A stretch of DNA of 64,000 nucleotides from Planctomycetota bacterium (lineage in GTDB: Bacteria; Planctomycetota; Phycisphaerae; FEN-1346). The translations under genes and the position numbers were made by a program. Below are positions 18,978 to 38,696 of this stretch, in pieces. The stretch lies in NCBI GenBank assembly GCA_030602705.1, contig JAUVZF010000005.1:2663-66662 (forward strand), in the 5' to 3' direction. How positions within the stretch are numbered: the first letter of the stretch is position 1; every line of letters starts with the position of its first letter. Below the pieces are notes generated by a model. It searched no databases. It was not told where the DNA came from and saw only the letters and a list, made by a program, of their open reading frames with translations.

Positions 18978-19682
18978 TCACACCTTGCTCACCGAAGAGG
19001 CCACGACTCCCTGGCCGTTGCACGTGAGGCAGTGTTGGCGCATGCGGCGTTTGCCGCGGGCCGTTTTCAGCGTATGCCGCCCCGTGCCATCGCAGTCTTG
19101 ACACATCGCGGGGTTCTTGATCGCCGGGACCTCCCCCGTGCCGCCGCAGGCGAGGCAACTCAGGTTGTCCGTATTGTCCGGCTGTATACCTGTCCCCTTG
19201 CAGAAGGCACACTGTGTCATGCCCCGGCGTTTGGTTTTGCGCATGACTGCGGCACGCGCCCTGGCTATCAGACGTTGGCCGTTGCAGACGAGGCAGCGCT
19301 GCCGCACGGGCCTCTTGCCCTTGGCAGTTCGCTTCATCTGATGCCCGGTTCCATCGCACGCCGGACACTTCACCGGGTCCTCGATCACGGGAACCACGCC
19401 TGTGCCACGACAGGCCAGGCAATGGAGGCGGTCCGTCGTGTTGGGTTGGACGCCGGTTCCGTTGCAGAACACGCAGGGCAGGACAGGCTGGTTCGCGTGG
19501 ATTTCTCCGGTTCCGCCGCACACCTGGCAGTTCGACAGAGCGGAAAGGCAGCCGAAAGGATCTTTGCCGGTGCCCCGGCAGAAAGCGCACTTAATCGTGC
19601 CGGTCGTCGGCTTGGGTTTGGCACGGGTTGCAGTTGCGGGGGTTCGTTTGATCTTCTTCCTTTGCAACTTGGCTTTTCCCAT
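18978..19682 (-). CDS. DnaJ-type zinc-finger repeat protein, with about eight CxxCxGxG units.
   Basis: CAFCRGTGKD...CQVCGGTGE...CVFCNGTGV...CLACRGTGV...CPACDGTGH...CLVCNGQ...CAFCKGTGI...CLACGGTGE...CQDCDGTGR. Basic N-terminus. Confidence 0.7.
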   Translation of the reverse strand: MGKAKLQRKKIKRTPATATRAKPKPTTGTIKCAFCRGTGKDPFGCLSALSNCQVCGGTGEIHANQPVLPCVFCNGTGVQPNTTDRLHCLACRGTGVVPVIEDPVKCPACDGTGHQMKRTAKGKRPVRQRCLVCNGQRLIARARAAVMRKTKRRGMTQCAFCKGTGIQPDNTDNLSCLACGGTGEVPAIKNPAMCQDCDGTGRHTLKTARGKRRMRQHCLTCNGQGVVASSVSKV

Positions 19683-19850: not shown

Positions 19851-20303
19851 CTAGCCCGCCACAACTCCCTGGCCTTTGCAGGTGAGGCAGTACTGACGCA
19901 TGCGTCGCTTGCCACGGAACGTCCGCAATGTATGCCGGCCGGTGCCATCGCAATCCGGGCACTTGACCGAGTCCTTGATGGCGGCGACTTCCCCCGCGCC
20001 GCCACAGACCAGACAGTGAAGGCGGTCTGTGGTGTTGGGCTGCACGCCCGTTCCCTTGCAGAATGCACACATGCGCGTGGGCCCCTTGACAGGGCTCTTT
20101 CCGGTTCCGCCGCAGACCTGACAGTTCGACAGGCGGGAAAGCGAACCGAAACGATCCTTGCCCGTGCCCTCGCAAAAAGCGCACACGCCGTTGCCGACCT
20201 TGCGCTTCGGGGCAACAGTGGTTTTGGGTTCAACCCTTGGGTTGCCCTTCTTCCCCTTCGGTGAACTACCCCCTGCGGTCACTTTTGACTTGGCTCTTGG
20301 CAT
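19851..20303 (-). CDS. DnaJ-type zinc-finger repeat protein, paralog of 18978..19682.
   Basis: CAFCEGTGKD, CQVCGGTGKS, CAFCKGTGVQ, CLVCGGAGE, CPDCDGTGRH. About 70% identical to its neighbour over the repeats. Confidence 0.65.
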   Translation of the reverse strand: MPRAKSKVTAGGSSPKGKKGNPRVEPKTTVAPKRKVGNGVCAFCEGTGKDRFGSLSRLSNCQVCGGTGKSPVKGPTRMCAFCKGTGVQPNTTDRLHCLVCGGAGEVAAIKDSVKCPDCDGTGRHTLRTFRGKRRMRQYCLTCKGQGVVAG

Positions 20304-20494: not shown

Positions 20495-21901
20495 TCAACC
20501 GCCTTCGACGGACAACGGCGCAAACATCTCGTCCATCTCTCCTGCCAAATCGTCCTTGAGACTGCCGAGAACGGTCATGGAATGCGCCTTCCGATACAGG
20601 GAAACCAATTCAAGGTCGTCGTTGATGTTCGGCAGATTGATTATTCCGTGGTCCGGATGGAAGTAACTGTATTCTTCCCAGTTATCCGATCGGAGCCAGC
20701 CATTGCGCTTGCATTTGTCGTACAGATCGGTGCCTGGAAACGGGACGACAATGGAGGCAGTGCTGAACTCGAGGCCGAGGGTCTCGATCAGGTCAATGGT
20801 GGCCTCGATGTCCGCTCTCGTCTCTGTGGGGTAGCCGATCATGAAATTCCCCGTCGGCGTTATTCCAGCGTCGTTTGTCATCTGGACGGCCTTCTTTATC
20901 TGGGAAGGTTTGGTCCTCTTGCCACACTCATCCAGTATTCTCTGGCTGCCGAATTCAATTCCGTAGAATATGACTTGGCAGCCGGCTGCCTTCATTTCTT
21001 CAAGAATATCCTCCGAAACTGTGTCCACGCGGCTATCACAGTTCCAGGCAACCTTCCGGCTCAGGCCTCTTTCGATCATGCCCCGGCAAAGCGAGACGAG
21101 CCACTTCTTGTTCGCCGTGATCAGTTCATCGGTGAAGCGCACGATCCTGATCCCGTACACGTCGGCGATCTCGGCCAGTTCGTCGAGCACATTCTGCACG
21201 GACCTTCGCCGCAGGACCGGCCAGAATCGCGGAACGGAGCAGTAGTCGCAGTGGAAGGGACAACCTCTGCTGGCTGAGACCGCTGTGAACCGCCCCCGGC
21301 TCTTTCCCAACCTGGTCACGTAGAGGTGATTCGGCAACAGATCTCTTGCCGGGAAAGGCAGCGAGTCAAGGTCCTCGATAAACGGACGAGCTGGCGTAAC
21401 CACGACGTGGTCTCCGTCCTTGAACGTGAGTCCTTTCACCTTCTCGAGACTCCCGTCGCCGGAGAGCGCCCGAGCCAGTTCGACGATGGTGATCTCGCCC
21501 TCTCCCCTGACGCAGAAGTCAATGAACGGCTTCTCAATGAGTTCCCTGTGGCAGGGATGGACGTGCGCCCCTCCAAGAACGATCTTTGCTGGAGGATAGG
21601 CCGCCCTTATCTGCCTACAGGCGTCCAGGGCGCTCTTCAAGTTCGAGGTGAAAACGGTAAGGCCGACGAGGTCCGGCTGTGCCTCCGCCACCTGCTGGGC
21701 AAGTCTGTCATGGGGCATCCCGATTGATTTTGCATCCACGATCTCAACCCCGGCCCCCTGTGCCCTCAGTGCCGAGGCGAGATAAGCCAGCCCGATGGGC
21801 GGGAACTTCGAGCCGGTCCGGACCGCTTGCCGGATCACCTTTTCTTTGGTGATGTTGACCGAACGTCGTAGCGGGTCAACAAGAACGCACTTGAGGGTCA
21901 T
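20495..21901 (-). CDS. B12-binding-domain radical SAM protein.
   Basis: N-terminal cobalamin-binding Rossmann region (IGLAYLASALRAQGAGVEIVD...LVGLTVFT) followed by the radical-SAM cysteine triad SRGCPFHCDYCSVP. Confidence 0.85.
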   Translation of the reverse strand: MTLKCVLVDPLRRSVNITKEKVIRQAVRTGSKFPPIGLAYLASALRAQGAGVEIVDAKSIGMPHDRLAQQVAEAQPDLVGLTVFTSNLKSALDACRQIRAAYPPAKIVLGGAHVHPCHRELIEKPFIDFCVRGEGEITIVELARALSGDGSLEKVKGLTFKDGDHVVVTPARPFIEDLDSLPFPARDLLPNHLYVTRLGKSRGRFTAVSASRGCPFHCDYCSVPRFWPVLRRRSVQNVLDELAEIADVYGIRIVRFTDELITANKKWLVSLCRGMIERGLSRKVAWNCDSRVDTVSEDILEEMKAAGCQVIFYGIEFGSQRILDECGKRTKPSQIKKAVQMTNDAGITPTGNFMIGYPTETRADIEATIDLIETLGLEFSTASIVVPFPGTDLYDKCKRNGWLRSDNWEEYSYFHPDHGIINLPNINDDLELVSLYRKAHSMTVLGSLKDDLAGEMDEMFAPLSVEGG

Positions 21902-22080
21902 GTAGTAGTTTCCCCTTCTTCGTTCTCGGTTTCGCCTTTTTCGCCCTGCTCCTCCGGACTCGGTTCACGCTCGTCGCCGCGCGTTTCCTTGGACCCACCA
22001 AACATGCCGCCCACCATGTCGGTGATCTTGTTTGCCGTGTCGCTAACGACTCTGACCACACGCGTAACTGTGTCCATCAT
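21898..22080 (-). CDS. 60-aa peptide with a hydrophobic N-terminal half and a highly acidic C-terminal half, start-overlapping the downstream radical-SAM gene. Candidate substrate or partner peptide.
   Basis: MMDTVTRVVRVVSDTANKITDMVGGMFGGSKETRGDEREPSPEEQGEKGETENEEGETTT. Its stop overlaps the radical-SAM start. Confidence 0.35.
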   Translation of the reverse strand: MMDTVTRVVRVVSDTANKITDMVGGMFGGSKETRGDEREPSPEEQGEKGETENEEGETTT

Positions 22081-22092
22081 TGGTTCACTCCT

Positions 22093-22374
22093 TTACTGTT
22101 GTGATCGCTCCAGTTCCAACAAGAACTGCTCACCCTTCTCGGTAATCTCGTAGCCGGTTACGGTCGTTCCCCTTATATAGTCGCCCCTCCATAAAGACCG
22201 GCAAAGGATGGCGGCATACTTCGTTGAGAACCCCATCTCGGTGCCCACGGCCTCGGCCTTCACCTTTCCCAACTCATCCGCTTTCCCCAGTTCACGGATC
22301 AGTTTGAGCGCCTCTCGTTCGCTGGCCACGATTGATGCCATGTTCATGCCCTCCGAGGCCTTGGGGGCAGACAC
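22093..22374 (-). CDS. Small wHTH protein of the cluster family. Start is probably an internal Met near 22341.
   Basis: MGFSTKYAAILCRSLWRGDYIRG motif. Confidence 0.5.
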   Translation of the reverse strand: MSAPKASEGMNMASIVASEREALKLIRELGKADELGKVKAEAVGTEMGFSTKYAAILCRSLWRGDYIRGTTVTGYEITEKGEQFLLELERSQQ

Positions 22375-22408
22375 GCGAGAAACCGATTCCCGGCCGCGTC
22401 GATCAGGT

Positions 22409-22669
22409 TCATGATGCCGGCCCCGCTGTTCCAGAGAGAAGACGGTATTGGCATTTTTTTCTTTGCTTCACCGCGTCGTCTACCAGTTTGAGTATCGCAT
22501 CCTCATCTCGGCGGCGCCCCTCCTGTGCAATCCGGTTATACTTGGCGAGGGCTTCTCTGGCGCGGCCGGCCACAAGCAGTCTGCCCGCCTCCGAATAGAG
22601 CCCGACCATTCGAGCCCAGATTTCGGCAGCCGTCTCGGTCCGTCCTTCTTCAGCACCCTTCACGGTCAT
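22409..22669 (-). CDS. Small hypothetical, helical or TPR-like protein (86 aa).
   Basis: ORF only. Confidence 0.3.
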   Translation of the reverse strand: MTVKGAEEGRTETAAEIWARMVGLYSEAGRLLVAGRAREALAKYNRIAQEGRRRDEDAILKLVDDAVKQRKKCQYRLLSGTAGPAS

Positions 22670-23487
22670 GGTGCTCCCTGGTTCGCCTTATCGCCAAGCG
22701 TTTGACGTTCGTGCTGCGTTTGCGGCGCGCATGGGACAGGCTTGCACTGTTGGCTCAGCAGGTCCCGCCACAGGCCGGTTGTTTCCGGCGGAACCTCGTG
22801 CCGCGGTGATGGGTCCGCGGCCGCTGCCGGCTGCTGCTCGTGCTGCGTTTGCGGCGCGCGTGGGACAGGCTGTTGGCTCAGCAGGTCCCGCCACGGTCCG
22901 GTTGTTATTTCCGGCGGAACCTCGCGCCCCGGTGATGGGCCCGCGGCTGCTGCCGGCGTCTGCTCCTCGCCTATTCCACGAAGATGTCGCACGAACCCCC
23001 TCATCTGCTCCCTGCGCCTGGCCGACTGCTCCCGCCAGGCCTCTCGCTGCTTCGCGGTCTCTTCCTTATGCTTTCTAATGAGCGCGCGCATATCTTGCCG
23101 CCTAGTCGTCCCCTTTCCCGAAGGCGGCGGCTGGTGCTTGGGGCGAGAGGGCCGCGCCACCACCTTGTCCGGCCCAACCTCGGGCTGTTTATTGGCAGCC
23201 GCGGATATCCATTTCGCGTATTTTTCATCCGCCGACAAACGAGGCCCCTGCCGTTGTTCTTCGCGCTGCTTCTTGCCGATCGCTCCCATTCCTAAGTCCG
23301 TGATCCTGACCCTTCCCGCGGCGGACACGTCAAGGAAACCCCTCCTGCCCACTGAGGCCAGCACCGTTCTGGCATAATCGACGCGCCATCCCATGTGGTT
23401 GGCGATCCGCACCTCGTGAAGTTCGCCGTCGCCCTCTTCCAGCAGAAACTCCATGATCTCCTTCTCATCAGGAGTAGGCATGCTCAC
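22666..23487 (-). CDS. N-terminal wHTH protein with a long disordered tail containing a ~125-bp tandem duplication.
   Basis: N-terminus ...HMGWRVDYARTVLASVGRRGFLDV. The repeated peptide PSPxxEVPPExTTGxWRDLLSQQ occurs twice, and the DNA repeat lies at about 22680-22930. Confidence 0.5.
   Translation of the reverse strand: MSMPTPDEKEIMEFLLEEGDGELHEVRIANHMGWRVDYARTVLASVGRRGFLDVSAAGRVRITDLGMGAIGKKQREEQRQGPRLSADEKYAKWISAAANKQPEVGPDKVVARPSRPKHQPPPSGKGTTRRQDMRALIRKHKEETAKQREAWREQSARRREQMRGFVRHLRGIGEEQTPAAAAGPSPGREVPPEITTGPWRDLLSQQPVPRAPQTQHEQQPAAAADPSPRHEVPPETTGLWRDLLSQQCKPVPCAPQTQHERQTLGDKANQGAP
22680..22930. repeat. Tandem direct repeat (2 units, ~125 bp, ~90% identical) within the coding sequence.
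   Basis: gttcgtgctgcgtttgcggcgcgc(a/g)tgggacaggc...ccggcggaacctcg is repeated. Confidence 0.6.
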
Positions 23488-23867
23488 GCTCCGTCTGCCG
23501 ACGGGGCGTTACGCTCTCCCCGCCTTGGGTTCCTCTTGCGAAGATGCGCGACAAGGTCCCTCCCCTCCCGGCGAATCCACTTGATTTCCGACCTGGACCT
23601 GCCTCGTATCTCATGGATGTCGTCCTTGCATCGTGCGCGGAGTTCCTTTACGGCTTCTCGTCTCTGTTGCTTGTTCACCTCGCACAGCGCCTTACGTGCC
23701 TCACGGCCCGCTTGCCAGTCCTGCATCCAGGTCGCGACGTCGCCACGACGGTACCGGCGTTCATCCGCCGCGGTCCGTCGGGTCTTGCGGTTTGACTCAC
23801 TGAGTCGCTGGCGTAACTCTTGGCAGTCGTGCCGCCGGGCGCCCGCATTGAAAGCGCTTACCCCCAT
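23484..23867 (-). CDS. Hypothetical basic protein (127 aa).
   Basis: ORF only; highly Arg-rich. Confidence 0.35.
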   Translation of the reverse strand: MGVSAFNAGARRHDCQELRQRLSESNRKTRRTAADERRYRRGDVATWMQDWQAGREARKALCEVNKQQRREAVKELRARCKDDIHEIRGRSRSEIKWIRREGRDLVAHLRKRNPRRGERNAPSADGA

Positions 23868-23875
23868 GGATCACT

Positions 23876-24301
23876 TCACCCCCTTTTCACGGAGCGCTGG
23901 GGGGCTACTTGCTGTTGGTTTCGCCTAACCCCGCGCCTGCTCTTCTCCGTTTTCGATTTCGTCTGCCGCCTCTTGTCCTTGACCTTCCGGGGGACGAAGC
24001 CTTCGCCCTGACAGTGCAGGCAAACAAGATTCTTATCAGTGCCGGCGCCTGTCCCGCCACAGACCTGACAGGTGTCGTAAGGCTTGTCCACGTACACGCT
24101 CTTACGGCCGTGGCAAACCGGGCATTCCGCCAAAGACGGCACGCCGTAGAAGTGCCCCAATCCGGTGCCTTTGCAGAATGCGCAAGGAAGTTTTGCCAGT
24201 TCCCGCACGGCTTCATGAGCGCCCCGCTTTCTCCCCTTCCCAGGCGCCTCGTTCGCAGCATTCTTTCGGACGTGTTTCGTTTTCACTGCTGTTCTTGCCA
24301 T
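23876..24301 (-). CDS. DnaJ-type zinc-finger repeat protein (paralog).
   Basis: Start at MARTAVKTKH. Repeats CAFCKGTGLG, CPVCHGRKS, CQVCGGTGAG, CLHCQGEGF, with a basic C-terminal tail. Confidence 0.6.
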   Translation of the reverse strand: MARTAVKTKHVRKNAANEAPGKGRKRGAHEAVRELAKLPCAFCKGTGLGHFYGVPSLAECPVCHGRKSVYVDKPYDTCQVCGGTGAGTDKNLVCLHCQGEGFVPRKVKDKRRQTKSKTEKSRRGVRRNQQQVAPQRSVKRG

Positions 24302-24459
24302 TTGCGTGATTTCCTCTCGCTCATTGAGCCGGACACTTGACGGGCATCCCATGCCGCATGCCCCGCCATGTAAGGGACACGCCACGCCTTGGCGCGCCCG
24401 ATGCCGAAGCCCTCAGGCTCGGCGACTGCACCGGTTCGCCGATAACCTCCCTCGCCGTC

Positions 24460-24684
24460 TCACTTGCGGAACTTGCCCGCCACGTCTTTCCCCGTGGGAG
24501 TCAAGCCGAATCGGTGCGACTCCGGCTGTTGTGCTATACAACCGGTTCGGAGCAGCCTCCGACAAATGAGTCGCGCATAACGAGGCTCGATATTCAGCCT
24601 CTTGGCCAGCGCAAATGCGGTGCAGTCGCCTGCATCGGCAATACTCTGGAGTACTTCCCGTTCAACCCCAACGACGCTAACCAT
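24460..24684 (-). CDS. Small wHTH protein of the cluster family.
   Basis: LAKRLNIEPRYARLICRRLLRTGCI. Confidence 0.5.
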   Translation of the reverse strand: MVSVVGVEREVLQSIADAGDCTAFALAKRLNIEPRYARLICRRLLRTGCIAQQPESHRFGLTPTGKDVAGKFRK

Positions 24685-24736
24685 ATTTTCACCCTCCTCC
24701 CTTCAGCCCAGGGCGTCCCCCGACGCGTCGCCGCTC

Positions 24737-24946
24737 CTACTCGCTGCCGGAGAACACGTGCTCAGCCTTGCTCAAAGGTACGTAGTGATAGCCAACCTTG
24801 CGCAGTTTTTTCTTGCGGATGAGGATGTTGCACAGTTGTTCGGCGTAACCGCTGGTTAGGCTTAGCAACTGACCGATTTTCCGCGGCGTTGCTTTCTCGC
24901 CCAAGGTTGCAACAGCATCCATCACGTCCTTCTCCCTTCCGGTCAT
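24737..24946 (-). CDS. Small wHTH protein of the cluster family.
   Basis: Start at MTGREKDV, preceded by AAGGAGGTG. Motif LTSGYAEQLCNILIRKKKL. Confidence 0.55.
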   Translation of the reverse strand: MTGREKDVMDAVATLGEKATPRKIGQLLSLTSGYAEQLCNILIRKKKLRKVGYHYVPLSKAEHVFSGSE

Positions 24947-25018
24947 CGCAGCCACCTCCTTATCTGTAGCCTGTCTGCTCTTGTCCGACAACGCGCCGGG
25001 CAGAACTCCGAGGCCAAT

Positions 25019-25933
25019 CTACTGCCTTCCCATATCCTTCGCGAACACTCCGCGGCAGCACGGGGCGCCGTCGGGGACGGTTGCGCTGAACGAGAAACCG
25101 ATCGCCGGGTTGATGGCGCGTGCGGCGCAGTCCATGTGTTCGGCACATGAGACCGAACACGGTATCCACCCCGGCGAGGCGTCCAAGCCCATGCTTCGTA
25201 TGACGCTGTGCCGCCAGCAGGCGAGGACTTGTATGGTGCAGCGGTCGGCGGTTTGCTCGCCGAGCGTCACTTGCTGTGCGCCGGTAACGGCGGCCATGGC
25301 GCCAACGGTTCTGGCGATGGCAGAGGGTCCATCTCCGTGGATGCCGACTTTTTGCTTGAACCGCCGATAATTCGCTGCGACATCCTGGAGTGCCCCCTGC
25401 CGGATTTCGTGGAGGAAGTGCCAGGAAACGCCCTTCTGGACGTAACCCAGTTCCACCTTGCAGGTTTCGACGAGCGACTTGACCACGTAAATGACCCTGA
25501 TCCACTCCTTGCCGGCCAGTTCGAACTTGGCCCTGGTTGAGAGCCTCTTGACCAGCCGCTCGATTGAGTCGAAGGTTATGCCCTCGAACTCCGGCACAAG
25601 CCTTTCGAGTTTGTGTTGCGCCTGAAGGACGCGGGCCACGGCCTCCTTGTGCTTTCCCTGACCCTGGAGGACCTGCCCAAGCGTAACGTCGGGAAACGCG
25701 TCATCCGGCGCCGCTTCGACGGCCCTGTTCGCGTAGGAGGCGGCCCGGTCGATCCGGCCGCCCTTAAGGCATGCGTCCGCCAGATTGTTGAGCAGGGCCA
25801 CGTCGTTCGGGTTCTGCGCGAGGCCCTTCTTGTAGAAAGAGATCGCCTCCGCATAGAGCCCCTTCGTAGCGCTTCGGCGTCCTATGCGGAGCGCTTCGCT
25901 GGAACGGATTGCCTGTGCGCTATGGACGGTCAT
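25019..25933 (-). CDS. TPR-repeat protein with a C-terminal cysteine-containing domain of unknown function.
   Basis: N-terminal TPR-like repeats (YAEAISFYKKGLAQNPNDVALLNNLADACLKGGRIDRAASYANRAVEAAP). Confidence 0.55.
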   Translation of the reverse strand: MTVHSAQAIRSSEALRIGRRSATKGLYAEAISFYKKGLAQNPNDVALLNNLADACLKGGRIDRAASYANRAVEAAPDDAFPDVTLGQVLQGQGKHKEAVARVLQAQHKLERLVPEFEGITFDSIERLVKRLSTRAKFELAGKEWIRVIYVVKSLVETCKVELGYVQKGVSWHFLHEIRQGALQDVAANYRRFKQKVGIHGDGPSAIARTVGAMAAVTGAQQVTLGEQTADRCTIQVLACWRHSVIRSMGLDASPGWIPCSVSCAEHMDCAARAINPAIGFSFSATVPDGAPCCRGVFAKDMGRQ

Positions 25934-25949
25934 CGATCCATCTCCTCGG

Positions 25950-27308
25950 TCAAGCGAACTGCCGCAGTTGCTCCCTGAACTGGAATTCCAGGCCGGCCCT
26001 CTCGTATAGTTCGCGCAGTTGGGTATCCGTAATATGTTCGAGTTTGATAACGCCCTGCTTCAACTGGTAAGAGTAATACCGCCAGTCCGAGGTCCTCAGC
26101 AGGTTGTGCTCTTTGCAGTAATCGTAGAGCGGGGTGCCGGGGAAAGGAGTTACGATCGAGAAGCCGGCACTATCCAGACCGTGATCGATGGCAAGTTCCT
26201 TGGCGAAGTTGATGGTGTCCTCGACCGTTTCGACGGTTTCGGTCGGATACCCCATCATGAAGTAGCCGTAGGAGGAGATGCCGCTCTTTGCAGTCATTTC
26301 TACGGTCCGGCGAACCTGCTCTGTCGTGAACCCCTTCTTGCAAAGGTCCAGTATCCTCTGATTTCCGAACTCAATCCCGTAGAAGACCACCCGACAGTTG
26401 GCCTGGCTCATGGCGGCCAAGAGTTCCTCCGACATCAGGCCGACCCTGCCGTCGCAGGCCCAGGCGAGGTCCTGGAGGCCCCTGCGGACCATTCCCTCGC
26501 ACAGCGCCATTGCCCACCGGCGGTTCGCAAGGAGGAGGTCATCGAGGAAGCGGACATACGTAACGCCAAGGTTGTTGCGGATCTGTTCGAGTTCATCGAG
26601 CACGTCGTCCACCGACCGTCTCCGTTGCCGTCTGCCCCAAATGGCCGGCGCGTCGCAGAACGCGCAGCAATACGGACAGCCCCGAGACGCGAGCACCGGG
26701 CTGAAGGGGACGCCACCGGTCCACGAGCCTGTGTAGGCGGGATGCCGCAACAGATCGCGAGCCGGAAGCGGCAACGTATCCAAGTCCTGAACGAACGGCC
26801 TGTCGGGCGTTACATGGACCTGGCCGTCGCGCCTAAAAGTGATACCTGCCACATCGGCCGGGTTTGTGCCGTCCCGCAGCGCTCTGAGCAACTCGACGGC
26901 TGTCAGTTCGCCCTCGCCTCTTACGCAGAAGTCGACCGCGTCGTGCTCAATAACCGCCCGATGCTCAAAATGGACGTGCGGCCCCCCAAGGATCACCGTC
27001 GTTTCGGGGTCGAGGCGCTTTACTGCGGCCGCGATACGCACAGCACTGTGGATTCTGGCGGTGATCGCCGTTATACCGACGACTTCGGGGCGTTCTCTCT
27101 CCACCTCAGCCAGCACGTCGTCGCTTGACAGGCGCAGGGCTCTGGACTCGACTATTCCAGAATCGACACCGTGGGCCCGCAGTGCTGCGGCGATGTACAG
27201 AAGGCCGAGAGGCGGATATGCCTCGTGCATTTCGGTGGCGATCTCCTGATCGCCCCCGCAGGAGCCAGCGAACAACTCGTCCGGCGGGTCTATAAGGAGG
27301 CATTTCAT
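25950..27308 (-). CDS. B12-binding-domain radical SAM protein (second paralog).
   Basis: Cobalamin-binding N-terminal region plus radical-SAM cysteine triad SRGCPYCCAFCDAP. Same overall layout as 20495..21901. Confidence 0.85.
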   Translation of the reverse strand: MKCLLIDPPDELFAGSCGGDQEIATEMHEAYPPLGLLYIAAALRAHGVDSGIVESRALRLSSDDVLAEVERERPEVVGITAITARIHSAVRIAAAVKRLDPETTVILGGPHVHFEHRAVIEHDAVDFCVRGEGELTAVELLRALRDGTNPADVAGITFRRDGQVHVTPDRPFVQDLDTLPLPARDLLRHPAYTGSWTGGVPFSPVLASRGCPYCCAFCDAPAIWGRRQRRRSVDDVLDELEQIRNNLGVTYVRFLDDLLLANRRWAMALCEGMVRRGLQDLAWACDGRVGLMSEELLAAMSQANCRVVFYGIEFGNQRILDLCKKGFTTEQVRRTVEMTAKSGISSYGYFMMGYPTETVETVEDTINFAKELAIDHGLDSAGFSIVTPFPGTPLYDYCKEHNLLRTSDWRYYSYQLKQGVIKLEHITDTQLRELYERAGLEFQFREQLRQFA

Positions 27309-27778
27309 GTGGTCAGTCGCTTCCTCGGTGGTGTCCGTGCAGGGCGAGGGCCGGGCTTCGGCTGAAGTTCTCCGCCGCCAGGCTCCGCCTCGGCGCCGTC
27401 CACCGTCCGAATGAGGGCCTGCAACCGGTCCCGCCAGGACTCGAGGTCATCGATGCGCAGGTGGATGGTGCTTTCGCCGTGTGCGGTTGCCCGCCGCACG
27501 GCCAGTTGCGGGCACGTCTTCTTGGAGATCCAGCGGCGCTCGACGATCTCGACGCCGAGAACGGCTTCGGCCGGCAGTTCCCACAACTTGTTCGGGCCCT
27601 GGTAGAACAACAGGCGCGTCGGAGCCTGGTAGAGATACCCGGGTTTCCAGGACGGAAACATCTTGTTGCCGCCGTCCCACGAGGCCTGCTCGCGCCGGGT
27701 GTACCTCTCGCCGTCTATCACCGGCGGGCCGAGCGACTCGCGGTGCCTTTCCAGGGCGCTTTTGAGAATGCCGCGCAT
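27305..27778 (-). CDS. Hypothetical protein (157 aa), start-coupled to the radical-SAM gene.
   Basis: Its stop overlaps the radical-SAM start (ATGA). No recognisable motif. Confidence 0.45.
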   Translation of the reverse strand: MRGILKSALERHRESLGPPVIDGERYTRREQASWDGGNKMFPSWKPGYLYQAPTRLLFYQGPNKLWELPAEAVLGVEIVERRWISKKTCPQLAVRRATAHGESTIHLRIDDLESWRDRLQALIRTVDGAEAEPGGGELQPKPGPRPARTPPRKRLTT

Positions 27779-27851: not shown

Positions 27852-29627
27852 TCATTGCGCGCTCTCGACACTTTCGGGAATGCCGGCTCGCCGCGCGCCG
27901 GCTCCCGCACGTTCGGCGGCCTGGATTGCTGCCACCGCCTTGTCGGTCTCGGCTGCGAGGCGTTCGATGTCGCCGTCCGCGAGCAGCGTTTCGAGTGTAG
28001 CGTGTGCCTGTTGGATATCGGCCACACGCTCGTCCGGCAACTGCTCGCCGGCGTCGCCGGTTCCCGCCAGGATGGCGGCGCTTTCGCTGAGCGCGTTGCG
28101 CGCACGGGTGCGTGCCTCGAATTCGCGACGGCGCCGCCTGTCTTCGGCGTAGAACGCCTCGGCTTCTCTGAGCCGCGCCCGCACGTCCGCCTCTCCAAGG
28201 AGGGCGTCGCTGCGGATCTCGATGCTGCTGCACTCGTCGGTCCGCAGGTCTTCCGCCTCGACCCGAACAACGCCGTCGGCATCGACGAAGAACGTCACTT
28301 CGACGCGGCCTCGCCCGCGTTCGAGCGGGTGGATGTCGAGGTTGAAACTACCGAGCGAGACGTTCTCGCCGGCCACCTCGCGTTCGCCCTGAAGCACCTC
28401 GATGTTCATCGATTGCTGTCCGTCGGCGGCGTTGGTGAACAACCGGTTTGCGGAACAGGGAATCGTAGTATTGCGGCGGATGAGCCGCGAGAACAGCCTG
28501 CCCTCGGTCTTGATTCCCAGCGACAGTGGAATGACATCGACCAGGACGGCCCTTCGCGGCAGCCCCGACAGCATGCCCGCCTGCACCGCGGCCCCGATTG
28601 CCACAACCTCGTCGGGGTTGACCTTTGTGTAGGGTTCCTGTCGAAACATCTCCCGGACCAGCGCCCGCACGGCGGGCATGCGCGTTGAGCCGCCGACCAA
28701 CACCACGCGGTCGATCTGATCGACCTCCAGGCGAGCGTCCTTGAGGGCTTGGCGGGTCGGCCCGACCATGCGGCCGAGGAGGTGCCTGGTGGCCGCCTCG
28801 AATTCAGCGCGCCTCACGCGCGATTGCAGTTCGTGATGCCGGTCCGTCTCGGCGGAGGCGACCGTCAGAGAGACGAATGCCTCGGCGTGGTCGGAGAGGT
28901 CGCGTTTGGCCTTCTCGGCGGCGTCCAGGGCTCGGCGCCTCAGTCTCCGGTCTGCCAAGACATCAAAGCCGGACTGCCGGCGGAACCGTTCCGCCAGGAG
29001 CATGAGCATGACCTCATCCCAATCATCTCCGCCCAGATGGTTGTCGCCGTTGACCGCCTTGACCTCGAACAGGCCGTCACCGAGTTCCAGGATCGAGACG
29101 TCGAACGTGCCGCCGCCCAGGTCCCAGATCAAGACGGTTTGGAGGTCCTCCCGGTCGAGGCCGTAAGCCAGTGCTGCGGCCGTAGGCTCGTTGATGACGC
29201 GCAGGACCTGGAGTCCGGCCAGCCGCCCCGCCTCGAGAGTTGCCTGACGCTGCGTATGGGTGAAGTACGCGGGTACGGTGATGACGGCGCGGCGGATTTC
29301 GGTGCCGAGCCGGGCGGCGGCCCGGGCCTTGACACCTTCCAGTATGCGGGCAGAGACTTCCTGGGGTGTCATCCGGCGTCCGCCCAGAGAGACGACATGG
29401 GCCGTGCCCATGCGTCTCTTGATCGAGAAGACGGCGTCGTCCGGCTCCGCTTCGGCGCGGGCGCGGGCCGGGGCGCCGGCGAGCACTCTGCCGCCGGCAT
29501 CGACTGCGACGACGGACGGCAACAGCCGCTCGCCGGCAGCGTCTGTGATGACCTCCGCGCGCCGGCCGTCGTAGAGTGCCGCGACGGAGAACGTTGTCCC
29601 CAGGTCGATGCCGATGGCCTCATGCAC
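27852..29627 (-). CDS. Hsp70-family chaperone (DnaK-like), about 590 aa.
   Basis: IGIDLGTTFSVAAL, AVITVPAYFTHTQRQAT, VLIWDLGGGTFDVSIL. Start taken at the GTG (VHEAIGIDLG) at 29627, 6 nt after a perfect AAGGAGG; the listed upstream extension overlaps gvpJ. Confidence 0.85.
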   Translation of the reverse strand: MHEAIGIDLGTTFSVAALYDGRRAEVITDAAGERLLPSVVAVDAGGRVLAGAPARARAEAEPDDAVFSIKRRMGTAHVVSLGGRRMTPQEVSARILEGVKARAAARLGTEIRRAVITVPAYFTHTQRQATLEAGRLAGLQVLRVINEPTAAALAYGLDREDLQTVLIWDLGGGTFDVSILELGDGLFEVKAVNGDNHLGGDDWDEVMLMLLAERFRRQSGFDVLADRRLRRRALDAAEKAKRDLSDHAEAFVSLTVASAETDRHHELQSRVRRAEFEAATRHLLGRMVGPTRQALKDARLEVDQIDRVVLVGGSTRMPAVRALVREMFRQEPYTKVNPDEVVAIGAAVQAGMLSGLPRRAVLVDVIPLSLGIKTEGRLFSRLIRRNTTIPCSANRLFTNAADGQQSMNIEVLQGEREVAGENVSLGSFNLDIHPLERGRGRVEVTFFVDADGVVRVEAEDLRTDECSSIEIRSDALLGEADVRARLREAEAFYAEDRRRRREFEARTRARNALSESAAILAGTGDAGEQLPDERVADIQQAHATLETLLADGDIERLAAETDKAVAAIQAAERAGAGARRAGIPESVESAQ

Positions 29628-29880
29628 GGATGGCCTCCTTCGGCTCCGGTGTTCTGCGGGCGCGTTCCCATGCGCGGATGTTCTCATCCCACTGGGTGAA
29701 TATGCCGTAGTTGAGCATGGTTTCCATGCCGGCCAGGGCCGCCCGCAGTTTCACGCCCAGCAGCGGAATGCCCGCCACCGAAATGACGACGTCGGCGTCG
29801 ATGATCAGTCCCTTTTCCAGGACGCGATCCAGCAGATCGACGAGTGTCGCTTTCGCCGCGAATTCGGGAACGTCGTTCAT
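29620..29880 (-). CDS. Gas vesicle protein of the GvpA/J/M family (GvpJ-like).
   Basis: ATLVDLLDRVLEKGLIIDADVVISVAGIPLLGVKLRAALAGMETMLNYG matches the GvpA-family core LxDxLDRxLDKGxVIxAD...GIELL. Confidence 0.8.
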   Translation of the reverse strand: MNDVPEFAAKATLVDLLDRVLEKGLIIDADVVISVAGIPLLGVKLRAALAGMETMLNYGIFTQWDENIRAWERARRTPEPKEAIRA

Positions 29881-29896
29881 CTCGAATTACCCCAGG

Positions 29897-30895
29897 CTAT
29901 GTAAAACTGTAAGGCGGCCACGGGCCCGTCACGCGGACCGAGAGGCCCTTGCCGGTGCAGTAATCCGTGAAGGCCGCCCTCAACGCCTCATCCGTGCCGT
30001 TCTCGACCAGGCAGGAGAGGTTCGCCACCATGCGCAGGTTGTCTTCGCCTGTCTTGAGTTTGCCGACCGACACCTCGACCGCGTGTCGGCCGGCCAGATC
30101 GAACGCCTCGCGGAAAACGGTCTCGGCACGTTTCAGGATCTGTTCCCTCACCCGCTTCTCCAACTCCTGCCTCTGGAAGTAGAGGGCGCCCTCGGATTTG
30201 CCGGTCAGGCCCTTTTTGAGTTCGACAACCTCCGGGCAGGTCGCCATCACGTCGGGCGTGGCCGATTCCACGTCCAGAAAGACCTGGACGCCGTACTCCT
30301 GCCGGCGTCGCACCCGGTCGGCTTTCTGGAGCAGTACGTCGCCCTCATCGTGGAGCCACCTTCGGAGGTGATCCGCGGCATCCGCACGGTCCTTTCCGGA
30401 GACCATCGTGTCGAACGCCATCGGCAGGACGGCCGCATAGCGCTGGCATGCTTCCGCCACCACCGCCTGATGGCGGATGACCCACTTCTCAACGGTTTCC
30501 TTGTCTTTCGAGGCATACGGCTTCGCCGCGCACTCATGGACAACGGCCACCAGGCCATTCCCAGGAACGGCAAACACTTCGGCGTCGTCGATGCCGGCGG
30601 TTTCAAACGGGATGGGCTCTCCCACCGTCACGGCATAGACGTAGAGGGCCCGCTGATGGGTGTCCTGGGCGTTTTCCGTTCTCGGCCGTGGGGATGCCTG
30701 TCTCGCCGGCCGCCCTTGGGGACCCGTTGCCGGCCCGCCCTCGACGAGGGAAAGCAGGGCGTCGACCTCGGCCGGGTCCGTCTGGACGCCGGCCGCGCCC
30801 AGCAGCGTGCTCAGGTTCTCACGTGTCACCGGTTTACCGGCCGATCTCAGCGTTGCTGCCGCATAGATCAGGCTCGCGTCGTCTCTTTTGTTCAT
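29897..30895 (-). CDS. GvpF/L-family gas vesicle protein with an N-terminal extension resembling the ribosomal P-stalk (aL12/P1/P2) N-terminal domain.
   Basis: The C-terminal two-thirds is GvpF/L-like (ALYVYAVTVG..., ending VTGPWPPYSFT). N-terminus LIYAAATLRSAGKPVTRENLSTLLGAAGVQTDPAEVDALLSLVEGG versus archaeal P1 [47 protein letters not shown]. Start overlaps the gvpK 3' end by ~60 nt, so the start is uncertain. Confidence 0.7.
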   Translation of the reverse strand: MNKRDDASLIYAAATLRSAGKPVTRENLSTLLGAAGVQTDPAEVDALLSLVEGGPATGPQGRPARQASPRPRTENAQDTHQRALYVYAVTVGEPIPFETAGIDDAEVFAVPGNGLVAVVHECAAKPYASKDKETVEKWVIRHQAVVAEACQRYAAVLPMAFDTMVSGKDRADAADHLRRWLHDEGDVLLQKADRVRRRQEYGVQVFLDVESATPDVMATCPEVVELKKGLTGKSEGALYFQRQELEKRVREQILKRAETVFREAFDLAGRHAVEVSVGKLKTGEDNLRMVANLSCLVENGTDEALRAAFTDYCTGKGLSVRVTGPWPPYSFT

Positions 30896-31214
30896 CGTTC
30901 ACCGCTCTGTTGGCCGCCTCCGTCACGCCCGGCGCGACGAGGGTCCGCAGGGCGTCGTCCACCAGGTCGTCGAGGCCTTCGCGGACGTTGGCGACCGCTT
31001 CTGAAATGCCCTGCTCCCGTTTGATCTGCTCGATGGCCTTGTCGAGTTCGATAAACGCGTTGCCGAGCCGCTCGACCTCCTCTTCGGTAAGGCTGCCGCC
31101 TTCCACACGGCGCATGGCCTGGAGGCGCAGGGCGTCTCGAATGATCTCGATAAGCGCGAGGACGAGCCCCAACAGGCCGGCCTTGAGTTTTTTCTCGTCG
31201 ATATTGATTGCCAC
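30834..31214 (-). CDS. gvpK: Gas vesicle protein GvpK.
   Basis: LLGLVLALIEIIRDALRLQAMRRVEGGSLTEEEVERLGNAF is the GvpK signature. Confidence 0.8.
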   Translation of the reverse strand: MAINIDEKKLKAGLLGLVLALIEIIRDALRLQAMRRVEGGSLTEEEVERLGNAFIELDKAIEQIKREQGISEAVANVREGLDDLVDDALRTLVAPGVTEAANRAVNDEQKRRREPDLCGSNAEIGR

Positions 31215-31241
31215 GATAGATACACTCCCGGCTTTGAGCCT

Positions 31242-37928: not shown

Positions 37929-37932
37929 GGGA

Positions 37933-38262
37933 TCAGCCTCCCCCTTTGAGGACGGGGATGAAGCCGCGCGAAACGGTCCTGGACACGGCCCTGAGGCCGG
38001 CCTCGGAAAGCACGTAGGTCTTTACCTTTGGAAGGGTCTTTATGGGCGAGGGGCCGCGGCCAGGGGCTGCTTCAGAGCCGCCCCTGATGTGGGCTCCGGT
38101 GTTCGCCTGTTTATGGCACCGGAGATAGCCGTCCTCGACCAGGACCTGGCACGCGGCCTCTACCTTGGAGGCTTGCATGCAGATTCGCCGGGCGATACTG
38201 ACCGCCCTGGCCTTTCGGAGTTCGCGCACGACGCTGAGTATCTGTTTCTCAATGCCTTTCAA
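37933..38262 (-). CDS. Small wHTH protein of the cluster family.
   Basis: ARRICMQASKVEAACQVLVEDGYL. Weaker match to the family motif. Confidence 0.45.
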   Translation of the reverse strand: MKGIEKQILSVVRELRKARAVSIARRICMQASKVEAACQVLVEDGYLRCHKQANTGAHIRGGSEAAPGRGPSPIKTLPKVKTYVLSEAGLRAVSRTVSRGFIPVLKGGG

Positions 38263-38687: not shown

Positions 38688-38696
38688 GACAGCCTC

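What the first reader, a model, noticed from the sequence alone, without database searches (positions are those of the whole stretch)
20495..27778. Two B12-binding radical SAM enzymes, one immediately preceded by a 60-aa hydrophobic/acidic peptide that may be its substrate
The rSAM at 20495-21901 has its start codon overlapping the stop of a small ORF (21898-22080), MMDTVTRVVRVVSDTANKITDMVGGMFGGSKETRGDEREPSPEEQGEKGETENEEGETTT. A wHTH gene lies just upstream. The second rSAM (25950-27308) is start-overlapped with a 157-aa unknown protein and followed by a TPR protein. B12-rSAMs typically methylate unactivated carbons in peptides, cofactors or lipids. They have no known role in gas-vesicle formation, so they may modify a peptide (RiPP-like) or a Gvp protein.
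Basis: inference. Interest (0 to 1): 0.55.

Follow-up and report, generated by a model that had tools for sequence, protein, structure and literature searches.

The report
B12 radical SAM enzymes of gas-vesicle clusters
Two related cobalamin-type radical SAM enzymes are conserved parts of an unusually large gas-vesicle gene cluster shared by several anaerobic phyla, which suggests an undescribed enzymatic step in building these protein-only flotation organelles; the small peptide gene next to one of them is real but is not a generally conserved partner.

Summary
Observation confirmed. Both genes encode B12-binding plus radical SAM proteins that are 44% identical. Each start overlaps the upstream stop by 4 nt (60-aa ORF; 157-aa ORF).

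They lie in a one-strand gas-vesicle (gvp) supercluster of about 39 kb: gvpA, a gvpC-like gene, N, F/L, G, J, K, M, O, plus DnaK, two ArsA, CDC48, sHsps, and many wHTH and DnaJ-type zinc-finger genes.

In about 20 independent contigs (Brocadiia, Scalindua, Desulfobacterota, Nitrospirota and others), close homologues of both enzymes sit in such clusters. Relatives at 49% identity or less do not; several sit in glycan-type clusters. No curated radical SAM family cut-off is met.

rSAM2 always travels with a TPR protein whose four-Cys C-terminal domain looks V4R-like. It often travels with a PH-like protein whose domain is also fused to GvpJ/M-type and sHsp proteins elsewhere.

The 60-aa ORF has a Shine-Dalgarno site and syntenic homologues only in close relatives. 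Motif-level look-alikes occur in two distant clusters, one of them beside an rSAM1-type gene.

Best reading: accessory enzymes that modify, probably C-methylate, an unfolded gas-vesicle assembly protein, as MgmA does with MCR. A RiPP reading is weakly supported. A small-molecule substrate remains a serious rival.

The parts
20495..21901 (-). rSAM1: B12-binding plus radical SAM enzyme, 468 aa; founding member of the gvp-linked 'rSAM1' clade
   Evidence: Pfam PF02310 and PF04055. CxxxCxxC at C214/C218/C221 is invariant in 34 homologues. Homologues at 50% identity or more (50-80%) lie in gvp clusters. NJ clade of 43 tips with no known non-gvp member.
21898..22080 (-). 60-aa small ORF: N-terminal amphipathic helix, GGMFGG motif, acidic tail; translationally coupled to rSAM1
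   Evidence: AGGAG SD and ATGA overlap. Syntenic homologues of 46-76% identity in L001, L161 and L162 only. Motif look-alikes in L007 and L168.
22093..22374 (-). 93-aa putative MarR-like wHTH protein upstream of the small ORF; one of at least 9 wHTH paralogues in the cluster
   Evidence: 78% identical orthologue in L001. Its own Pfam matches are sub-threshold only (HTH_45, E 0.13); paralogues give weak MarR/HTH_24/IclR hits; no PqqD hit.
19851..20303 (-). DnaJ-type CxxCxGxG zinc-finger protein downstream of rSAM1
   Evidence: Pfam DnaJ_CXXCXGXG. A zinc-finger gene follows rSAM1-type or rSAM1-like genes in L001, L006, L007, L162 and L166.
18978..19682 (-). Second DnaJ-type zinc-finger protein
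   Evidence: Pfam 66.7 bits; NCBIfam DnaJ partial match.
25950..27308 (-). rSAM2: B12-binding plus radical SAM enzyme, 452 aa; founding member of the gvp-linked 'rSAM2' clade
   Evidence: Pfam. Orthologues at 57-68% identity in 12 further gvp loci. NJ clade of 45 tips with no known non-gvp member.
27305..27778 (-). 157-aa PH-like protein, translationally coupled to rSAM2
   Evidence: The AF2 model has 7 strands plus a C-terminal helix, but pLDDT is only 51. Foldseek hits are almost all PH/PTB/FERM folds with weak TM of about 0.2. A profile finds the same domain standalone near rSAM2, duplicated inside GvpJ/M-type proteins, and at the N-terminus of sHsp proteins.
25019..25933 (-). TPR protein with a C-terminal V4R-like domain carrying four invariant Cys; invariable downstream partner of rSAM2
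27852..29687 (-). DnaK/Hsp70 paralogue inside the cluster
   Evidence: NCBIfam DnaK 628.6 bits against a 648 cut-off. Conserved in sister clusters.
16592..17554 (-). 320-aa protein with an N-terminal PH-like domain (same family as the 157-aa protein) and a C-terminal Hsp20-like domain
   Evidence: PH profile E 1e-14 at residues 30-134. Hsp20 match at residues 224-303.
29620..31634 (-). gvpM-like, gvpL/F, gvpK and gvpJ (the last with a C-terminal Zn ribbon): core wall and assembly genes next to the rSAM2 block
   Evidence: NCBIfam and Pfam hits; sequences.
35877..41560 (-). Two double-domain ArsA/Get3-type ATPases (35877-37928 and 39263-41560) with two wHTH genes between them
   Evidence: Pfam ArsA_ATPase 423 and 426 bits. 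ArsA association with gvp clusters was described in PMC2963123.
42620..52088 (-). gvpO, Zn ribbon, gvpG, two gvpF, CDC48-type AAA, sHsp, AAA_5 ATPase, gvpN
   Evidence: Pfam.
52892..54491 (-). gvpA (54285-54491) followed by a 452-aa repeat protein (47-aa repeats) in the gvpC position
   Evidence: tblastn 82% identity to Anabaena GvpA. Pfam Gas_vesicle. 141-nt tandem repeats, 5.3 copies.

Best explanation
The two genes are paralogous class-B-type (cobalamin-domain) radical SAM enzymes. They are dedicated, vertically conserved components of an 'extended' gas-vesicle gene cluster found in strictly anaerobic lineages.

Shown: the enzymes, their paralogy, their cluster membership across phyla, and their fixed partners.

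Inferred: they act on a protein of the gas-vesicle assembly line, not on a secreted natural product. The cluster is full of holdases and unfoldases (DnaK, two ArsA/Get3-type ATPases, CDC48, sHsps, DnaJ-type zinc fingers) that would keep very hydrophobic GvpA/J/M-type proteins unfolded. I propose that rSAM2 is brought to its client by the co-translated PH-like protein, because the same domain is physically fused to GvpJ/M-type wall proteins and to sHsps in sister clusters. The TPR/V4R-like four-Cys protein would be the second subunit. The enzyme would carry out a radical modification, most likely methylation of an unactivated carbon via methylcobalamin, on the unfolded client before it enters the vesicle wall. 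This is the way MgmA methylates unfolded MCR.

rSAM1 would do the same on a second site or client. In the Brocadiia lineage the 60-aa glycine-motif peptide encoded just upstream is a candidate client or helper, but not the general one.
For: - Domains and motif.
- Paralogy.
- Cluster map, all genes on one strand with short gaps and no excess of terminator-like sites.
- Close homologues of rSAM1 (50% identity or more) or rSAM2 (57% or more), and two intermediates (P0044, P0059), lie among gvp, ArsA, Hsp70, sHsp and zinc-finger genes in every contig long enough to tell. That is about 20 contigs from Brocadiaceae, Scalindua rubra, Desulfobacterales, Thermodesulfovibrionales, Nitrospirota, a 'Clostridia' MAG and unbinned metagenomes.
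- None of the 61 genome loci with an rSAM at 49% identity or less has any of these genes.
- rSAM2 is followed by the TPR/V4R gene in all 14 loci checked.
- The PH-like domain is shared between the rSAM2-coupled protein, GvpJ/M-type proteins (two copies each in L003, L004, L010, L013, L017, L018) and sHsp proteins.
- Among solved structures, the MCR glutamine C-methyltransferase MgmA (9CCB) is about as close as the best hit (E 3e-26 and 1e-24). It is a roughly 450-aa enzyme described as having a cleft fit for unfolded MCR (PMC11796369).
Against: - No substrate is identified and no modification has been observed. The chemistry is not predictable from sequence: the nearest models include BchE (a cyclase), HpnJ and AprD4 (a dehydratase whose B12-like domain, from my own knowledge, binds no cobalamin).
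- The invariable partner of rSAM2 carries a V4R/H-NOX/Bet3-like fold, typical of small hydrophobic ligand binding.
- The nearest non-gvp relatives sit in glycan-type clusters.
- GvpA here is 82% identical to cyanobacterial GvpA, which comes from an organism without these enzymes, so nothing in its sequence signals a modification site.
- The PH and V4R assignments rest on low-confidence models (pLDDT 51 and 64).
Confidence: 0.42

Rival explanations
1. Small-molecule substrate. rSAM2, with its TPR/V4R-like partner as carrier, and perhaps rSAM1, modify a hydrophobic small molecule (lipid, tetrapyrrole-like or glycan-derived compound) that the gas-vesicle system needs or uses as a signal. This would be analogous to the BchE cyclase working alongside the V4R protein BchJ.
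For: - The best NCBIfam models are BchE and HpnJ. The best solved structure is AprD4, which acts on an aminoglycoside.
- Relatives at 40-49% identity lie among DegT aminotransferase, GT2, GT4, SAM methyltransferase and epimerase genes.
Against: - The 39-kb cluster contains no other small-molecule biosynthetic gene: no glycosyltransferase, lipid or tetrapyrrole enzymes.
- Gas vesicles are protein-only structures by established knowledge.
- The PH-like partner domain is fused to Gvp wall-type proteins.
- All curated cut-offs are missed by a factor of 2 or more.
- The model behind the V4R call has pLDDT 64.
Confidence: 0.25
2. RiPP-like reading. The 60-aa peptide is the substrate of rSAM1, with the upstream wHTH protein acting as recognition element. 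The product is a modified small peptide, either a gas-vesicle-associated peptide or a natural product.
For: - Translational coupling and an SD site.
- The order wHTH, peptide, rSAM1 is conserved in four related contigs.
- A conserved N-terminal 35 aa with a variable charged tail.
- A 63-aa ORF with the same 'MFGG + K/E tail' motif lies 61 nt upstream of an rSAM1-type gene in the distant L168 cluster, and a 31-aa look-alike lies in the Scalindua cluster. The motif occurs in 3 independent gvp lineages in 0.37 Mb, against 0 hits in 1.77 Mb of control loci.
Against: - Six of the 7 non-Brocadiia loci with an rSAM1-type or rSAM1-like gene have other genes directly upstream: GvpF, wHTH or unrelated ORFs.
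- HMMER against 1.84 billion representatives found only 2 true homologues.
- In Scalindua the look-alike sits before ArsA, not before the enzyme.
- No PqqD/RRE signal was found, and no peptidase or exporter domain among the cluster ORFs scanned. RiPP rSAM models are far below cut-off.
- The similarity between lineages is a short glycine motif plus low-complexity sequence.
- It does not explain rSAM2.
Confidence: 0.15
3. Non-methylating or non-catalytic role. The enzymes might serve as redox/oxygen- or cobalamin-responsive checkpoints, or as radical enzymes doing cross-linking or epimerisation, gating gas-vesicle assembly in anaerobes.
For: - They are restricted to anaerobic lineages.
- Class-B-type enzymes include non-methylases such as BchE, HpnJ, AprD4 and OxsB among the top matches.
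- Several further invariant Cys (C130, C272, C288, C308, C397) are unexplained.
Against: - The full catalytic motif and SAM-binding core are strictly conserved over deep divergence, which argues for catalysis.
- No sensor-output domain is present.
Confidence: 0.1
4. Passenger genes. The two radical SAM genes are unrelated to gas vesicles and are merely inserted in the cluster.
For: None beyond the absence of such genes from the classical, experimentally studied gvp clusters (own knowledge).
Against: Conserved linkage in about 20 contigs across at least four phyla, with shuffled gene order but constant company.
Confidence: 0.03

Closest known systems
MgmA / QCMT, the B12-dependent radical SAM glutamine C-methyltransferase of methyl-coenzyme M reductase (PDB 9CCB; TIGR04014)
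   Same: Same compact architecture of about 450 aa: N-terminal cobalamin Rossmann domain, radical SAM barrel and a short C-terminal domain. It is among the two closest solved structures by sequence (E 3e-26 and 1e-24). It modifies a full-size, unfolded structural or enzymatic protein rather than a RiPP (PMC11796369), which is the mode of action proposed here.
   Different: Only 138-140 bits against a cut-off of 360, so this is not the same family. The genomic context differs (methanogenesis versus gas vesicles). No PH-like or TPR/V4R partners are described for MgmA.
BchE (anaerobic Mg-protoporphyrin IX monomethyl ester cyclase, TIGR02026) together with the V4R protein BchJ
   Same: BchE is the best-scoring curated model for rSAM1 (229.7 bits) and second best for rSAM2. 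A class-B-type rSAM is paired with a V4R-fold protein, as rSAM2 is with the TPR/V4R-like protein. The BchE/BchJ pairing itself is recalled from my own knowledge.
   Different: Scores are below half of the 481-bit cut-off. There are no tetrapyrrole genes nearby. The host lineages are not phototrophs. The V4R-like domain here is fused to TPR repeats and carries four Cys.
AprD4 (radical SAM diol dehydratase of apramycin biosynthesis, PDB 6FD2, NF033070)
   Same: Closest solved structure by sequence (E 6e-27 and 1e-27). Same domain order.
   Different: 115-125 bits against a cut-off of 500. It acts on an aminoglycoside, and no sugar-pathway genes occur here.
RiPP class-B radical SAM C-methyltransferases (TIGR03975 family, PoyC-like; ApyD NF050148)
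   Same: Class-B architecture. In this lineage a small ORF lies directly upstream and is translationally coupled.
   Different: 95-115 bits against 282, and 188-197 against 750. No RRE was detected, and no peptidase or exporter domain among the ORFs scanned. The peptide is not conserved with the enzyme.
ArsA/Hsp20-containing gas-vesicle gene clusters (Castillo and Saier 2010, PMC2963123)
   Same: gvpN/L/F/G/J/K/M(O) together with a double-domain ArsA homologue and Hsp20, as in Pelodictyon, Polaribacter and Geobacter uraniireducens.
   Different: That description lists no radical SAM, DnaK, CDC48, wHTH or zinc-finger genes. The cluster here is about 39 kb with roughly 45 genes.

Membership tests
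Radical SAM superfamily | CxxxCxxC motif for the [4Fe-4S] cluster within a PF04055 core | tested here: met
   PF04055 at 84.1 and 79.9 bits against a 29.5 cut-off. C214, C218 and C221 are invariant in 34 homologues.
Class B (cobalamin-dependent) radical SAM enzymes | N-terminal B12-binding Rossmann domain preceding the radical SAM core | tested here: met
   PF02310 at 84.6 and 88.8 bits against a 32.1 cut-off, residues 29-142. An invariant GGxH motif (G110, G111, H113) is present.
Class B (cobalamin-dependent) radical SAM enzymes | Actual cobalamin binding and methyl transfer via methylcobalamin | not testable with these tools
   Needs reconstitution. AprD4, the closest solved relative, is, from my own knowledge, a reminder that a B12-like domain need not bind cobalamin.
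SPASM/twitch radical SAM enzymes | C-terminal auxiliary-cluster Cys motifs (SPASM/twitch domain) | tested here: not met
   No SPASM hit in Pfam or NCBIfam. Only one invariant Cys (C397) lies after the core.
BchE (TIGR02026) | Score at or above the equivalog cut-off of 481.35 bits | tested here: not met
   229.7 bits (rSAM1) and 201.5 bits (rSAM2).
HpnJ (TIGR03471) / HpnR (TIGR04367), hopanoid enzymes | Score at or above the cut-offs of 577.6 / 650 bits | tested here: not met
   HpnJ 181.4 and 204.3 bits; HpnR 112.6 and 128.7 bits.
PhpK-type P-methyltransferases (TIGR04479) | Score at or above the 600-bit cut-off | tested here: not met
   151.2 and 159.7 bits.
MCR glutamine C-methyltransferase MgmA (TIGR04014) | Score at or above the 360-bit cut-off | tested here: not met
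   140.3 and 137.8 bits.
RiPP biosynthetic gene cluster | Precursor peptide co-conserved with the modifying enzyme | tested here: inconclusive
   Adjacent in 4 closely related contigs and, at motif level, in L168. Absent next to the enzyme in L003, L004, L006, L007, L163 and L166. Only 2 true homologues among 1.84 billion representatives.
RiPP biosynthetic gene cluster | RiPP recognition element (PqqD-like), leader peptidase, exporter | tested here: not met
   The wHTH paralogues give only MarR/HTH_24/IclR-type weak hits and no PqqD hit. No peptidase or transporter domain was found among the cluster ORFs scanned; not every ORF was scanned.
RiPP C-methyltransferases (TIGR03975) / ApyD (NF050148) | Score at or above the cut-offs of 281.85 / 750 bits | tested here: not met
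   TIGR03975: 114.6 and 95.3 bits. ApyD: 188.2 and 197.2 bits.
Gas-vesicle gene cluster | gvpA plus gvpN, gvpF/L, gvpG, gvpJ, gvpK (and gvpM, gvpO) in one locus | tested here: met
   gvpA, GvpN-type AAA, GvpF/L in three copies, GvpG and GvpO, GvpK and GvpJ, GvpM-like.
V4R / H-NOX / Bet3-like ligand-binding fold (C-terminal domain of the TPR protein) | Structural match to V4R-type domains | tested here: inconclusive

The most novel reading that the evidence does not exclude
Gas-vesicle wall or assembly proteins of anaerobic bacteria are post-translationally C-methylated, or otherwise radical-modified, by two dedicated cobalamin radical SAM enzymes. These would be delivered by a PH-like adaptor and a TPR/V4R-like subunit while the clients are held unfolded by the cluster's own chaperones. 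This would be the first enzymatic maturation step known for gas vesicles, possibly tuning wall hydrophobicity or strength.
Probability: 0.25. Interest if true: 0.85.

Novelty: new variant of a known kind. Interest (0 to 1): 0.6.

Why it matters
Gas vesicles are regarded as purely self-assembling protein shells. None of the experimentally studied gvp clusters (Halobacterium, cyanobacteria, Bacillus megaterium, Serratia; own knowledge) contains an enzyme of covalent chemistry.

Two cobalamin-type radical SAM enzymes are fixed in a gvp supercluster across Planctomycetota, Desulfobacterota, Nitrospirota and others. That implies an additional, oxygen-sensitive biochemical step in these organisms.

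If that step is a protein modification, three things follow:
- It would add a new class of full-length protein substrates for class B radical SAM enzymes, next to MCR.
- It could explain why such clusters might resist heterologous expression.
- It would offer a handle for engineering the mechanical or acoustic properties of gas vesicles used as ultrasound reporters.

The full-text searches I ran found no paper linking gas vesicles with radical SAM or B12 enzymes in this sense.

Tried and rejected
It returned only relatives at 39% identity or less, so it was useless for synteny.
- Exact look-up of the window's own rSAM1 failed, although an identical protein (P0001) is in the collection.
- HMMER hits of the 60-aa peptide to P0139 and P0141 (2332 and 587 aa) are repeats of 'EEVQDIVGAMFSSNTE' in large repeat proteins. 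I rejected them as spurious motif matches.
- A first strict regex for the glycine motif suggested that only Scalindua had a look-alike, about chance level. A looser, tail-aware pattern then found the L168 ORF, with zero control hits. This is still a short, low-complexity motif.
- The wHTH as an RRE: no PqqD signal.
- Ladderane-lipid rSAM (TIGR04072), tempting in a Brocadiia genome: 118-120 bits against a 360 cut-off, and the clades also occur in non-anammox phyla. Rejected.
- BLASTP of the 157-aa protein against the sHsp protein found nothing. Only a profile built from orthologues showed the shared PH-like domain.
- Structure models of the two partner proteins are of low confidence (pLDDT 64 and 51), so the fold assignments are indicative only.
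- The promoter and terminator scan gave nothing above shuffles.

Full report
**1. Observation**

- rSAM1 (20495-21901, minus strand, 468 aa) and rSAM2 (25950-27308, minus strand, 452 aa) each combine an N-terminal B12-binding domain (84.6 and 88.8 bits) with a radical SAM core (84.1 and 79.9 bits).
- They are paralogues, 44% identical over 444 residues.
- The 60-aa ORF (21898-22080) ends in a TGA that overlaps the ATG of rSAM1. It has an AGGAG box 7 nt before its start.
- The 157-aa ORF (27305-27778) overlaps the start of rSAM2 in the same way.
- A TPR protein (25019-25933) follows rSAM2.
- There is no SPASM or twitch domain. After the CxxxCxxC motif (C214, C218, C221) only one further C-terminal Cys is invariant.

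**2. Surroundings**

From about 15.3 kb to 54.5 kb all genes lie on the minus strand with short gaps. The excess of promoter- or terminator-like sites is nil. In the direction of transcription the genes are:
- gvpA (82% identical to Anabaena GvpA).
- A 452-aa protein with 47-aa repeats in the gvpC position.
- gvpN, a second AAA_5 ATPase, an sHsp, a CDC48-type AAA, two gvpF, gvpG, a Zn ribbon and gvpO.
- Zinc-finger proteins and two double-domain ArsA ATPases.
- gvpJ, gvpK, gvpL and a gvpM-like gene, then a DnaK paralogue.
- The block PH-like protein, rSAM2, TPR protein.
- wHTH and zinc-finger genes, then the block wHTH, 60-aa ORF, rSAM1.
- Two DnaJ-type zinc-finger proteins, more wHTH genes and a PH-like/Hsp20 fusion.

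A sigma-54 activator lies upstream of gvpA. ArsA and Hsp20 in gvp clusters were described earlier (PMC2963123). Radical SAM genes were not mentioned in that description.

**3. Are the enzymes part of the cluster or passengers?**

A protein search found an identical protein and many homologues. Names given to two near-identical neighbouring proteins point to a Brocadiia (Planctomycetota) MAG. I fetched loci through exact look-ups and one scan of species-representative genomes. I then compared all window proteins with them by tblastn.
- Loci whose enzyme is at least 50% identical to rSAM1, or at least 57% to rSAM2, carry gvp, ArsA, Hsp70, sHsp, zinc-finger and wHTH genes. This holds for every contig long enough to judge.
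- Those contigs come from a Brocadiaceae MAG, Scalindua rubra (both paralogues on one contig), Desulfobacterales and Desulfobacteraceae MAGs, a Thermodesulfovibrionales MAG, a Nitrospirota MAG, Ca. Euphemobacter, a 'Clostridia' MAG and unbinned metagenome contigs.
- Two intermediate sequences (P0044 and P0059; loci L166 and L168) are also gvp-linked.
- None of the 61 genome loci with an enzyme at 49% identity or less to both shows any of these genes.
- A neighbour-joining tree gives two clades of 43 and 45 sequences. Each holds all known gvp-linked members of its type and none of the checked non-gvp loci. Non-gvp Bathyarchaeota-type sequences fall between the clades (no bootstrap, so the branching order is tentative).

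Gene order around the enzymes is shuffled between lineages, but the company stays the same. That is what selection for co-inheritance looks like. The Scalindua rubra genome paper noted 11 gvp genes but not the radical SAM genes (PMC5486813).

**4. Family placement**

No curated NCBIfam model reaches its cut-off.

| Model | rSAM1 / rSAM2 (bits) | Cut-off (bits) |
|---|---|---|
| BchE | 230 / 202 | 481 |
| HpnJ | 181 / 204 | 578 |
| ApyD | 188 / 197 | 750 |
| PhpK | 151 / 160 | 600 |
| MgmA | 140 / 138 | 360 |
| RiPP C-methylase TIGR03975 | 115 / 95 | 282 |
| Ladderane rSAM | 118 / 120 | 360 |

By sequence, the closest solved structures are AprD4 (6FD2) and 9CCB. 9CCB is MgmA, the B12-dependent enzyme that C-methylates a glutamine of methyl-coenzyme M reductase. 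Its authors describe a large cleft suited to unfolded MCR (PMC11796369). No peptide family is matched either.

The nearest non-gvp relatives (40-49% identity) lie among DegT aminotransferase, GT2, GT4, SAM methyltransferase and epimerase genes, together with more B12-rSAM paralogues. These are glycan-type clusters. This keeps a non-protein substrate in play.

**5. The small ORF**

It is a real gene in this lineage. The order wHTH, small ORF, rSAM1 recurs in the Brocadiaceae MAG (57 aa, 46% identical, same ATGA overlap), in L162 (55 aa, 76%) and in L161 (55 aa, 47%). The N-terminal 35 residues are conserved: an amphipathic helix followed by GG[MAI][FL]GGS. The charged tail varies.

It is not a general partner of the enzyme.
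- An exhaustive HMMER search of 1.84 billion representatives found only those two relatives. Two further hits are spurious repeat proteins.
- Directly upstream of the rSAM1-type or rSAM1-like genes in other lineages lie unrelated ORFs in L003 and L004, a wHTH gene in L006 and L166, and GvpF in L007 and L163.

There is one twist. L168 is a distant gvp cluster of 43% GC. A called 63-aa ORF lies 61 nt upstream of an rSAM1-type gene (50% identical to rSAM1) and reads '...GVGKMFGGKEEKKEKKE...'. In Scalindua rubra a 31-aa ORF, 'MAEGMIGKIGGLIGGIFGGTKKKEKEEKEEK', lies 12 nt upstream of ArsA. A pattern for '[hydrophobic][FLIM]GG[STKGA][charged] plus charged tail' in ORFs of 120 aa or fewer hits three independent gvp lineages in 0.37 Mb and nothing in 1.77 Mb of control loci.

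This is a short, low-complexity motif, so I treat it as a lead. A family of small glycine-motif peptides may belong to these clusters and is sometimes placed next to rSAM1.

**6. The partners of rSAM2**

The TPR protein follows rSAM2, within 1.7 kb on the same strand, in all 14 loci examined.
- Its C-terminal 200 residues carry four invariant Cys: C239, C259, C263 and C293.
- Pfam gives a weak ATC_hydrolase hit in the same region.

The 157-aa protein has no Pfam match.
- Its model is poor (pLDDT 51) but shows seven strands and a C-terminal helix. Its Foldseek list is almost purely PH, PTB and FERM domains.
- A profile built from its orthologues is more telling. It finds the domain standalone near rSAM2 (window, L003, L012, L013, L016, L019, L020).
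- It finds two tandem copies inside 334-394-aa proteins whose N-terminus is a Gas_vesicle (GvpM/J-type) domain (L003, L004, L010, L013, L017, L018).
- It finds the domain at the N-terminus of roughly 300-aa sHsp proteins, including window 16592-17554.

These domain fusions tie the rSAM2 module to wall-type Gvp proteins and their chaperones.

**7. Mechanism**

Shown:
- Two conserved, intact class-B-type radical SAM enzymes.
- Their fixed membership in a chaperone-rich gvp supercluster restricted to anaerobes.
- Fixed partners for rSAM2.

Inferred (confidence about 0.4):
- They modify a protein of the assembly line while it is kept unfolded, as MgmA does with MCR.
- The PH-like protein acts as adaptor to GvpJ/M-type clients, and the TPR/V4R-like protein is a further subunit.
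- Methylation of an unactivated carbon is the most common chemistry of this class, but it cannot be read from the sequence.

Main rival (about 0.25): a small hydrophobic molecule carried by the V4R-like domain, echoing BchE with BchJ. The V4R-like fold, the top hits to BchE, HpnJ and AprD4, and the glycan context of the nearest relatives support it. The complete lack of other small-molecule pathway genes in 39 kb and the Gvp-fused PH domain count against it.

The RiPP-like reading for rSAM1 and the 60-aa peptide keeps about 0.15. A non-methylating or checkpoint role keeps about 0.1. Passenger genes are practically excluded.

**8. Novelty**

The full-text searches found no paper that links gas vesicles with radical SAM or B12 enzymes as cluster components. 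The enzymes are new subfamilies of a known class. The cluster is a new, enzyme-bearing variant of a known kind of locus. Its function is unproven, so I score interest at 0.6. It would rise if a modification of a gas-vesicle protein were demonstrated.

Noticed in passing
window 52892-54250 (-), repeats at 53200-54004: The gene right after gvpA encodes a 452-aa coiled-coil protein built from 141-nt (47-aa) tandem repeats, 5.3 copies at 83% match. It sits in the position of gvpC, but its repeat unit is longer than the 33-aa cyanobacterial one (own knowledge) and it has no Pfam GvpC hit.
   Followed up: partly
window 33061-33753 (-), repeats at 33235-33676: A 230-aa protein made of about 15-20 proline-rich 8-aa repeats (KPY[KRT]PVP[LPI]K / DYTP...) ending in a CxxC...CxxC zinc ribbon. 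Its C-terminal part is 45-68% identical in many sister gvp clusters, often right next to rSAM2. Function unknown.
   Followed up: partly
window 17571-17822, 18349-18930, 22093-22374, 22666-23487, 24460-24684, 24737-24991, 37933-38262, 38259-38687, 48201-48551 (all -): At least nine paralogous small MarR-like winged-helix proteins share a '[DS]YA..(L/I)C..L...G(Y/F)(I/L)' motif and are spread through the cluster. L004 has six or more copies in a row. That is far more than a regulatory role would need, so they may be structural or adaptor proteins.
   Followed up: partly
window 18978-19682, 19851-20303, 23876-24385, 31591-32646, 41579-42502 (-), plus Zn ribbons at 42937-43152 and in gvpJ 31242-31634: Five proteins consist largely of repeated DnaJ-type CxxCxGxG zinc fingers without a J domain. 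There is also a double zinc ribbon protein, and GvpJ has a C-terminal zinc ribbon. In L166 a GvpF is fused to a DnaJ J domain.
   Followed up: no
window 9505-10173 (+), 60589-62379 (+), 11770-14604 (-), GC dip at 8-12 kb: The gvp supercluster is bracketed by a resolvase-type and a large serine recombinase gene. A 944-aa N6/N4 DNA methylase lies at its downstream edge. GC drops from about 0.69 to 0.58 near 8-10 kb. The cluster may lie on a mobile island, which would fit its spread over several phyla.
   Followed up: no
window 55248-56465 (-): A sigma-54-dependent activator (Sigma54_activat 234 bits, HTH_8) lies just upstream of gvpA and is a likely regulator of the cluster. The sigma-70 consensus scan of 17-30 kb found no promoter-like site.
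   Followed up: no
L007 17615-17710 (Scalindua rubra MAYW01000026.1) and L168 15498-15689 (-): Small glycine-zipper-like ORFs with K/E-rich tails occur in distant gvp clusters. The Scalindua one sits 12 nt before the ArsA/Get3-type ATPase gene, which hints at a link between these peptides and ArsA rather than, or as well as, the radical SAM enzyme.
   Followed up: partly
window 22709-22965: A 126-nt direct repeat (2 copies, 86% match) lies inside the 273-aa wHTH protein gene (22666-23487) and duplicates a proline- and glutamine-rich segment of the protein.
   Followed up: no
L168 9463-10650 (-): A geranylgeranyl-reductase-like FAD protein (GGR_cat, Lycopene_cycl) lies directly next to one of the two radical SAM genes of this distant gvp cluster. 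It is the only lipid-type enzyme seen beside a gvp-linked rSAM.
   Followed up: no
rSAM1 residues C130, C272, C288, C308, C397 (window 20495-21901): Five cysteines outside the CxxxCxxC motif are invariant across 34 homologues of both clades. They do not form a recognisable SPASM or twitch pattern, and their role (second cluster, cobalamin pocket, disulfides) is open.
   Followed up: no
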